Assembly (NCBI RefSeq): GCF_030028105.1
Contig: NC_092379.1
Span: forward strand, 23,801,821 to 23,865,820
Reading direction: 5' to 3'
Source: Mobula birostris
Lineage: Eukaryota
Length of the DNA: 64,000 nt
The notes beneath the pieces are model-generated. The model had not been told where the DNA came from and searched no databases. It saw nothing but the letters and a program-made list of their open reading frames with translations. Made by a program: the position numbers and the translations under genes. The number at the start of each line of letters is the position of its first letter. Position 1 is the stretch's first letter. This document shows positions 52,678-53,201 of the stretch, piece by piece.

Positions 52678-52716
52678 GGTTTTTGTGCAGTTCTACTCCC
52701 GATCGCTCTCACCGTG
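52678..52716 (-). promoter_or_regulatory. 23-bp-spacer RSS of V3
   Basis: CACGGTG-AGAGCGATCGGGAGTAGAACTGC-ACAAAAACC. Confidence 0.93.
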
Positions 52717-53201
52717 TGTTTCGCACAGTAATAGGTGGCCGTGTCGTCCAGTATTAGGCTGTTTATTTGCAGATAAACTGTGCTGCTGTCCTTGGAAACC
52801 TCGAATTTGCCTTCGACTCCAGGAGCGTAATCTTTGTTACCGCCACCCCAGACAACGGCCACCCATTCCGGCCCTTTCCCTGAGACCTGTTTCACCCAGT
52901 GCACGTCATTGTTGCTGAGCCTGAACCCACTGACCGCACAGGTCAGTCTGTGGGACTGTCCGGGTTTTACCATCTCCGACTCGGGCTGTTTCAGCACGAT
53001 ATCGGACTGCGCGTCTGTCAACAAAAGAAGAGTAGAAATTGATAAAAATGTTCCAGGAGCATAGATTCACAAAGCCTCCTAGAAACAGTTTGCCTCGGGT
53101 AGATAATAAATTGTGAGACAGACACCTGGAAGACAAAGCAGGAGGAGACAGAAATAAGGAATGCCCCATATCTTGCTGAGCACAGAATCCGACTTCGACA
53201 T
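52717..53201 (-). CDS. Intact IgH V segment V3 (IgW-like): leader 53126-53201, V exon 52717-53014
   Basis: [78 protein letters not shown] intron; no stops. Confidence 0.93.

What the first reader, a model, noticed from the sequence alone, without database searches (positions are those of the whole stretch)
52678..53201. V3 vs V2: CDR-focused divergence after their J segments had already died
Hand alignment with approximate IMGT boundaries: about 9 of 15 CDR1+CDR2 residues differ ([29 protein letters not shown]), against about 13 of 78 framework residues (FR3 4 of 36). The J lesions and the ERV are shared by both copies, so they predate the duplication separating V2 and V3. Conserved frameworks with variable CDRs suggest selection on these V segments after their own J was lost.
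Basis: partly seen in the sequence, partly recalled or inferred. Interest (0 to 1): 0.7.

Follow-up and report, generated by a model that had tools for sequence, protein, structure and literature searches.

The report
Antibody V genes serving ray TCR-delta
In a ray's genome, antibody-type variable segments that lost their own joining and constant parts lie just upstream of the T-cell receptor delta gene, have stayed intact while their antigen-binding loops changed faster than neighbouring DNA, and are likely used by T cells, an arrangement already catalogued in sharks and rays.

Summary
The counts are right: V2 and V3 differ at 9 of 15 CDR and 13 of 78 framework residues (p=0.001). The pair alone is weak evidence: V2 is a pseudogene, one CDR difference is its stop codon, and its frameworks are no more conserved than flanking DNA.

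The wider locus supports the conclusion. The window lies in an array of IgW-derived V-D-D-J cassettes with dead J and no constant exons, 66 kb upstream of TCR-delta D, J and C. V2 and V3 belong to an 8-member clade with 7 intact genes (1 disabling hit seen, about 18 expected). Framework dN/dS is 0.47-0.74 (p 0.001-0.05). CDR dN/dS is about 2 against flanks (p 0.0004-0.002) but 1.3-1.6 and not significant against the exon's own synonymous rate. Four long-dead siblings show neither signal. No conversion donor was found.

Most likely these V segments join TCR-delta D/J to make Ig-TCR-delta chains; no such join was seen here. The layout is published for the Atlantic stingray, and this scan noted it before on other DNA. 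New here: the selection test, and a possible TCR-like proline at IMGT 50.

The parts
53126..53201 (-). V3 leader exon (open, GT donor)
   Evidence: intron removed exactly in a contig of run X4 from a related organism
53015..53125 (-). V3 intron, 111 nt
52717..53014 (-). V3 exon: intact IgW-derived VH domain (mature part 52719-53003); clade A
   Evidence: Pfam V-set E 1e-12; VH hits in PDB; ray IgW-like proteins at 61-82%; tree
52905..52928 (-). V3 CDR1 (GFRLSNND)
52833..52853 (-). V3 CDR2 (VWGGGNK)
52678..52716 (-). V3 23-RSS, intact
   Evidence: V nonamer varies 2.8% within the clade against 11.8% in the 3' flank
52258..52312 (-). D1 remnant of the V3 cassette, both RSS degraded (approximate bounds)
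   Evidence: compared with the intact 12/23 D1 of the proximal cassette
45699..52121 (-). Endogenous retrovirus between D1 and D2 of the V3 cassette; two LTRs 11% apart; reading frames in pieces
   Evidence: RT E 2e-21, integrase E 6e-9, envelope-like heptad E 8e-4
45406..45469 (-). D2 of the V3 cassette (12/12 RSS type, 5' nonamer weak)
45053..45105 (-). IgW-type J stub of the V3 cassette, cut about 13 nt after the heptamer
43264..45053 (.). About 1.8 kb insert with 136-bp direct repeats that cuts the J; shared by the V2, V3 and +95.9 kb cassettes
39340..39425 (-). Second pseudo-J (4-nt deletion, no splice donor); approximate bounds
21392..21915 (-). V2: clade-A V pseudogene, TAG at the second CDR2 codon (21562-21564), RSS intact
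15979..21203 (-). Paralogous retrovirus copy in the V2 cassette, with an internal deletion and a deletion that removes D1; LTRs 13% apart
15330..15385 (-). J stub of the V2 cassette (approximate bounds)
61336..61864 (-). V4: clade-B V pseudogene (4-bp insertion shared by all four B copies, donor lost); neutral control
60065..60142 (-). Pseudo-J of the V4 cassette (TAG, 4-nt deletion, no donor); approximate bounds
30135..30190 (-). Clade-B cassette whose V is lost except the last codons and the 23-RSS
1523..2032 (-). V1: divergent V pseudogene (leader frameshift, donor lost, first Cys lost)

Best explanation
V3 is an intact IgW-derived V segment in a tandem array of J-dead, C-less cassettes directly upstream of the TCR-delta D, J and C, and it is likely kept because its 23-RSS joins the 12-RSS of TCR-delta D or J to make Ig-TCR-delta chains. 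Shown: the layout, the RSS types and orientation, intact genes in 7 of 8 clade members, and purifying selection on frameworks after J loss. Inferred: RAG deletes the 66 kb between V3 and D-delta, the cassette's own D and J included, and the chain pairs with TCR-gamma. Moderately supported: diversifying selection on germline CDR1 and CDR2. V2 is a member that has since died, so the V2/V3 difference mixes selected change on the V3 branch with decay on the V2 branch.
For: Layout on the same strand downstream: two 12/23 D segments, 7 J-like segments (4 with a 12-RSS picked up by the scan), one C1-set exon and a TM exon, then 77 J-like segments and a second TM exon. The C exon is single-copy and its best hit is 'T cell receptor delta constant' of Hypanus sabinus, E 8e-18. 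No IgW C hit in 374 kb around the array, but 8 or more in each of 3 complete IgW clusters. All 14 pseudo-J listed are broken, 3 of 3 J from complete clusters are intact. Clade A: 1 disabling hit against 17.9 expected, P=3e-7; stops alone P=0.003. FR omega 0.47 (p 0.001-0.003), 0.67-0.74 against flanks (p 0.008-0.05). CDR omega 2.0-2.1 against flanks (p 0.0004 for 8, 0.002 for 7 intact, 0.01 for the 5 without the retrovirus). M8 vs M8a p 0.009 and 0.001 for the 7 intact. Variable CDR sites: 17 replacement, 1 silent, only 1 at CpG. Dead clade B: FR omega 0.8-1.1, CDR 0.45-0.6. A contig of run X4 joins a clade-A-like leader to V across the 111-nt intron; run X1 holds an exact 98-nt V3 piece across CDR2. 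The same layout is labelled 'Ig-TCRd V' in stingray (PMC12227049 table S1).
Against: No V-to-J-delta join was seen: 0 of the 15 joints listed (16 more not shown; the stretch held only the proximal V and two J), and no protein joining a clade-A V to C-delta came up (the one assembled skate delta chain, P0026, has a TCR-type V). CDR omega is not significantly above 1 when the exon's synonymous rate is the yardstick: 1.28-1.43, p 0.19-0.34; 1.58, p 0.09 with a free exon rate; M8 vs M8a p 0.055 with V2 included. The cassettes are recombination mosaics, which can inflate site tests. In the V2/V3 pair the frameworks are not slower than flanks (p 0.87). The runs are only guessed to be RNA.
Confidence: 0.76

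Rival explanations
1. The V segments are functional in TCR-delta, but the CDR/FR contrast comes from purifying selection on frameworks with CDR replacements near neutral; there is no positive selection.
For: CDR omega 1.3-1.6, not significant against the exon's synonymous rate; only 15 codons; mosaic history.
Against: 13 of 24 variable FR silent sites are at CpG, which inflates that yardstick, and the exon rate is not significantly above the flank rate (1.32, p 0.15); flank-anchored omega is about 2 with a 95% interval of roughly 1.3-3; dead siblings show no CDR excess.
Confidence: 0.35
2. The V segments are kept for B cells: they rearrange to D-J-C of complete IgW clusters further along the same chromosome (or mainly to J-alpha) rather than to TCR-delta.
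For: Complete IgW clusters lie 1-4 Mb away on the same contig; their D segments would be RSS-compatible; 77 J-alpha-like segments also lie downstream.
Against: TCR-delta D/J are the nearest compatible partners, in deletion orientation; clade A is a separate branch found only in the array among the 32 V compared; chimeric IgW/IgM-V TCR-delta chains are reported for sharks (PMC12227049, PMC5931798, PMC6795676, passages).
Confidence: 0.12
3. CDR patches were brought in by gene conversion from unrelated V genes.
For: Units are recombination mosaics; V3's CDR2 peptide resembles that of IgW V in L010-L012.
Against: For V2 and V3 both CDR windows are closer to other clade-A genes than to any outside V (nearest outside 5-7 mismatches); in only 2 of 16 windows (both V138) is an outside V closer, by one base. 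Only 18 of the IgW V in the genome were compared.
Confidence: 0.07
4. All are dead relics; the pattern is chance or mutational hot spots.
For: V1, V2, V4 and the 30 kb remnant in the window are dead; no expressed join was seen.
Against: 7 of 8 intact against 17.9 expected hits; FR omega below 1; conserved V nonamer and promoter; dead siblings with the same CDR motifs show no excess.
Confidence: 0.04

Closest known systems
'Ig-TCRd V' genes of the Atlantic stingray, 'IgWVTCRD' and 'TAILV' of the catshark (Flajnik et al. 2025, PMC12227049, table S1; read: passages, and table S1 part 2 whole)
   Same: Ig-heavy-like V genes spread over about 460-470 kb directly upstream of TCR-delta C, followed by TCR-alpha C and then IgW clusters.
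   Different: The table lists gene models only; it gives no cassette anatomy, J lesions, retroviral insert or selection test. The clade-A expansion here has 8 members within 140 kb.
Ig-TCR-delta (trans-)rearrangements of nurse shark (Criscitiello 2010; Deiss 2019; Ott 2021; originals not held, known here only from passages in PMC12227049, PMC5931798, PMC6795676 and from recall)
   Same: IgW V exons used with TCR-delta D-J-C.
   Different: Here the V sit in C-less, J-dead cassettes in cis, so they cannot make IgW from their own cassette; the join itself was not observed here.
[quoted passage not shown]
   Same: IgH-like V in the TCR-delta locus without its own constant region.
   Different: Clade A is about 80% identical in DNA to this genome's ordinary IgW V, so it looks like a recent IgW derivative; identity with the shark TAILV lineage was not tested.
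Complete IgW miniclusters of rays
   Same: V(23)-D1(12/23)-D2(12/12)-J(23) cassette with homologous spacers.
   Different: Every J examined is dead and no C exons follow.
VH-delta genes of non-eutherian tetrapods (passage in PMC12698447)
   Same: Ig-like V inside the alpha/delta locus.
   Different: Different lineage; relationship not tested.

Membership tests
Ig-TCR-delta V (IgW-derived V used by TCR-delta) | V exon of IgH type rather than TCR type | tested here: met
Ig-TCR-delta V (IgW-derived V used by TCR-delta) | Lies upstream of TCR-delta D-J-C in the alpha/delta locus, same orientation | tested here: met
Ig-TCR-delta V (IgW-derived V used by TCR-delta) | Open leader and V, with a 23-RSS compatible with the 12-RSS of D/J-delta | tested here: met
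   V3 and 6 paralogues; V2 fails through its stop
Ig-TCR-delta V (IgW-derived V used by TCR-delta) | Found rearranged to J-delta/C-delta in transcripts | tested here: inconclusive
   no such joint among 15 listed (16 unseen) in short contigs of 4 runs; spliced leader-V only
Ig-TCR-delta V (IgW-derived V used by TCR-delta) | Pairs with TCR-gamma on T cells | not testable with these tools
   needs single-cell or protein data
Functional IgW minicluster | Intact J with W-G-x-G motif and splice donor | tested here: not met
   14 of 14 listed J broken; 3 of 3 controls intact
Functional IgW minicluster | Constant exons downstream of J | tested here: not met
   no hit in 374 kb; present in 3 of 3 control clusters
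TAILV lineage | Groups with shark TAILV in a V tree and is used only on TCR-delta (definition recalled) | not tested
   no named TAILV sequence was obtained; the defining paper is not held
NARTCR | NAR-type V-D-J placed before an RSS-bearing supporting TCR V without leader (recalled) | tested here: not met
   the V are IgW-like with their own leader and 23-RSS; no TCR-type or NAR-type V found in 474 kb upstream (the profile was built from IgW V)

The most novel reading that the evidence does not exclude
After capture by the TCR-delta locus, an IgW V lineage of rays expanded into a T-cell-only family that is being reshaped on two faces: its germline CDRs diversify under positive selection, and its pairing face is shifting from the antibody leucine to the TCR-type proline at IMGT 50 (5 of 8 clade members, 0 of 18 IgW-cluster V, also in a catshark IgW-V/TCR-delta model). 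That would be an antibody V caught turning into a T-cell receptor V.
Probability: 0.25. Interest if true: 0.62.

Novelty: new member of a known kind. Interest (0 to 1): 0.38.

Why it matters
It gives genomic evidence, independent of transcripts, that antibody V segments stranded in the TCR-delta locus are under selection and not passengers, with a built-in neutral control (the dead sister clade) and a dated retroviral insert. It names seven intact V segments whose use in ray gamma/delta T cells can be tested with one repertoire experiment. The arrangement itself is already published, so the gain is in detail.

Tried and rejected
No RNA holder was listed for V3; the four runs laid are contigs only guessed to be RNA. 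Laying them on the proximal V to second J-delta stretch showed joints of IgW-type V to the IgW-type J but no V-to-J-delta joint among those listed: no evidence either way. Protein searches for a clade-A V joined to C-delta gave none. A home-made IgW C profile was poor (it scored V domains and missed C-delta), so the lack of C exons rests on tblastn. I first suspected that V2's exon had been recombined onto the retrovirus-bearing cassette (upstream DNA groups V2 with the +70 kb copy); site-by-site listing put the crossover upstream of the promoter, so this was dropped. CpG decay as the cause of the CDR excess was rejected (1 of 17 sites). NARTCR and functional IgW were rejected (membership test). 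No note of the scan lay near this place. Deiss 2019, Ott 2021, Criscitiello 2010 and PMC12010099 are not held; their text and supplements may already describe J-dead IgW cassettes in the delta locus. Seven paper searches listed no selection test on such V; the library lacks the main primary papers, so this is weak. No fold or complex prediction was run.

Full report
What is at the coordinates. 52678-53201 on the minus strand is a complete V gene: leader, 111-nt intron, V exon and 23-RSS. The domain is VH-like. Its nearest named relatives are IgW-like proteins of rays (Mobula, Hemitrygon, Pristis; 61-82% identity). The window lies on G000:C12 at 23.80-23.87 Mb. It holds V1 (dead), V2 (stop in CDR2), a V remnant at 30 kb, V3 (intact) and V4 (dead). 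Places outside the window are given in extended window coordinates.

Observation. V2 and V3 differ at 9 of 15 CDR and 13 of 78 FR residues, Fisher p=0.001. In DNA the CDRs differ at 10/45 (9 replacements, one of them V2's stop, and 1 silent) and the FRs at 22/234 (14 replacement, 8 silent). Local non-coding DNA differs at 38/440, so the CDR excess is significant (p=0.008) but FR replacements are not rarer than background in this pair (p=0.87). Nine of the 14 FR replacements are on the V2 branch. Of the 28 pairs in the clade, V2/V3 is among the most extreme, but the CDR fraction exceeds the FR fraction in all 28 (pairs are not independent).

Shared lesions. Each unit is a V-D1-D2-J cassette homologous to complete IgW clusters. 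All 14 J listed are broken. In clades A and B the full-length copies share a 4-nt deletion and loss of the splice donor, most also a TAG at the Trp codon; 3 of 3 J from complete clusters are intact. In the V2, V3 and +95.9 kb units the J is cut by a 1.8 kb insert, and a retrovirus lies between D1 and D2. Its LTR pairs differ by 11-13% and paralogous LTRs by 7-9%, so it is older than the split of these copies. The units are mosaics: upstream DNA groups V2 with the +70 kb unit, downstream DNA with V3, but the crossover lies upstream of the promoter. Because the J deletion is shared with clade B, J loss predates the whole clade-A radiation.

Surroundings. No IgW constant exon was found from -100 kb to +274 kb, whereas three complete clusters at 19.6, 22.1 and 22.8 Mb each gave 8 or more hits. 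Downstream on the same strand lie two 12/23 D segments (-13.5, -13.9 kb), 7 J-like segments (-14 to -31 kb), a C exon (-39 kb) and a TM exon (-41 kb), then 77 J-like segments (-105 to -208 kb) and a second TM exon (-217 kb). The C exon is single-copy and matches 'T cell receptor delta constant' of Hypanus sabinus best (E 8e-18). This is the usual delta-inside-alpha layout (own knowledge). All V found in 474 kb upstream are IgW-like (the search was tuned to IgW V). V3's RSS is 66 kb from the first D-delta, in deletion orientation.

Selection across the family. Fourteen V lie between -7 and +167 kb. Eight form clade A (V2, V3 and six outside the window), four form clade B with a shared 4-bp insertion. 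Seven of eight A genes have open leader and V, splice sites and RSS. Neutral decay on the flank tree predicts 17.9 disabling hits; one is seen (P=3e-7). Codon models with the exon's synonymous rate as yardstick gave FR omega 0.47 (p 0.001-0.003) and CDR omega 1.28-1.43 (p 0.19-0.34); with a separate CDR rate 2.7-3.9 (p 0.03-0.07); M8 vs M8a p 0.055 with V2, 0.009 and 0.001 without it. With 798 local non-coding sites as yardstick, CDR omega was 2.14 (8 genes, p 0.0004), 2.04 (7 intact, p 0.002) and 1.99 (5 without the retrovirus, p 0.01), FR omega 0.67-0.74. Freeing the exon rate gave 1.32 (p 0.15), FR 0.52 and CDR 1.58 (p 0.09). Thirteen of 24 variable FR silent sites are at CpG, against 1 of 17 CDR replacement sites. 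Clade B gave FR 0.8-1.1 and CDR 0.45-0.6. Purifying selection is firm; positive selection on CDRs is likely but not proven.

Gene conversion. Among 18 IgW-cluster V and the 6 non-A V of the array, none matches the CDR windows of V2 or V3 better than other A genes do. Three B-type loci among L010-L030 were left out as duplicates of array members, and 11 further genome hits had no locus.

Expression. No run is on record as RNA. In contigs of four runs, one record from organism B joins a leader 95% like V3's to a V across exactly the 111-nt intron, and one from organism A matches V3 without a difference over 98 nt across CDR2. A second laying showed contigs over the D-delta2 to J-delta1 interval but no V-to-J-delta joint among 15 listed, 16 unseen. 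Use on TCR-delta is therefore inferred, not shown.

Mechanism. By the 12/23 rule (established knowledge) a 23-RSS V can join the 12-RSS of D-delta or J-delta and delete the cassette's own dead parts. That would explain why V, promoter and RSS are kept while D1, J and C decay. Shown: layout, intactness, purifying selection. Inferred: the join, pairing with TCR-gamma, antigen-driven CDR change.

Known work. PMC12227049 (passages; table S1 hits and part 2 whole) states that IgM and IgW V rearrange to TCR-delta D in sharks and lists seven 'Ig-TCRd V' models upstream of TCR-delta C in the Atlantic stingray, and 'TAILV' and 'IgWVTCRD' in catshark. PMC5931798 and PMC6795676 (passages) repeat the chimeric chains. 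PMC12698447 (passages) defines VH-delta. PMC3964593, PMC11372145 and PMC13007054 (term searches) added nothing specific. The primary papers were not available; what I say of TAILV and NARTCR definitions is recalled.

A lead. IMGT position 50 is Pro in 5 of 8 A genes and in two A-type proteins of Mobula hypostoma, Leu or Arg in 18 of 18 IgW-cluster V, Leu in 4 of 4 B genes, and Pro in the catshark IgW-V/TCR-delta model and in four TCR-type V. One TCR-type V missed by the pattern (P0016) has Leu by eye, and the Pro codon holds a CpG, so its direction of change is unclear.

Verdict. Observation confirmed; interpretation supported at family level; a new member of a known kind. Interest 0.38.

Noticed in passing
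window 52869-52871 (V3 codon 45) and paralogues: Pro at IMGT 50 in 5 of 8 clade-A V, as in most TCR-type V seen and the catshark IgW-V/TCR-delta model, against Leu or Arg in all 18 IgW-cluster V.
   Followed up: partly
G000:C12, window coordinates +173 to +178 kb and +396 to +408 kb: Old partial copies (67-78% identity) of the TCR-delta D-J region lie inside the V array, so the array grew partly by duplications that took delta D/J along.
   Followed up: partly
G000:C12, window coordinates +209 to +467 kb: A second set of IgW-like V, several with open frames and 23-RSS and a changed FR2 Trp; no TCR-type V found in 474 kb upstream of D-delta.
   Followed up: no
G000:C12, window coordinates -6.2 to -8.1 kb (L071): The cassette nearest D-delta has an open V exon, an intact 12/23 D1 and a dead J; its V groups with ordinary IgW V, and its leader begins with GTG where the others have ATG.
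   Followed up: partly
window 15979-21203 and 45699-52121; third, truncated copy at +93.8 to +95.3 kb: Retroviral insert with RT, integrase and envelope-like remains in pieces; LTR pairs 11-13% apart.
   Followed up: partly
window 43264-45053 and 13569-15358: A 1.8 kb repeat-rich insert with 136-bp direct repeats cuts the J and is followed by a duplicated pseudo-J.
   Followed up: partly
window 22830-28400 versus 53441-59775: Unequal crossovers: V2's upstream DNA is sister to the +70 kb unit, and the 3' half of the +95.9 kb unit is closer to V2 than to V3.
   Followed up: yes
protein P0001: A Mobula hypostoma gene model holds an A-type V followed by a frameshifted B-type V, so the A+B pairing and the death of B are shared with that species.
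   Followed up: partly
L071:1386-1733: Contigs of runs X1 and X3 cover the interval between D-delta2 and J-delta1 and stop about 30 nt inside J, as a germline D-J transcript might.
   Followed up: no
window 36711-37685 and 41176-43085: Long open frames of LINE-like reverse transcriptase type between cassettes (identity judged by eye).
   Followed up: no
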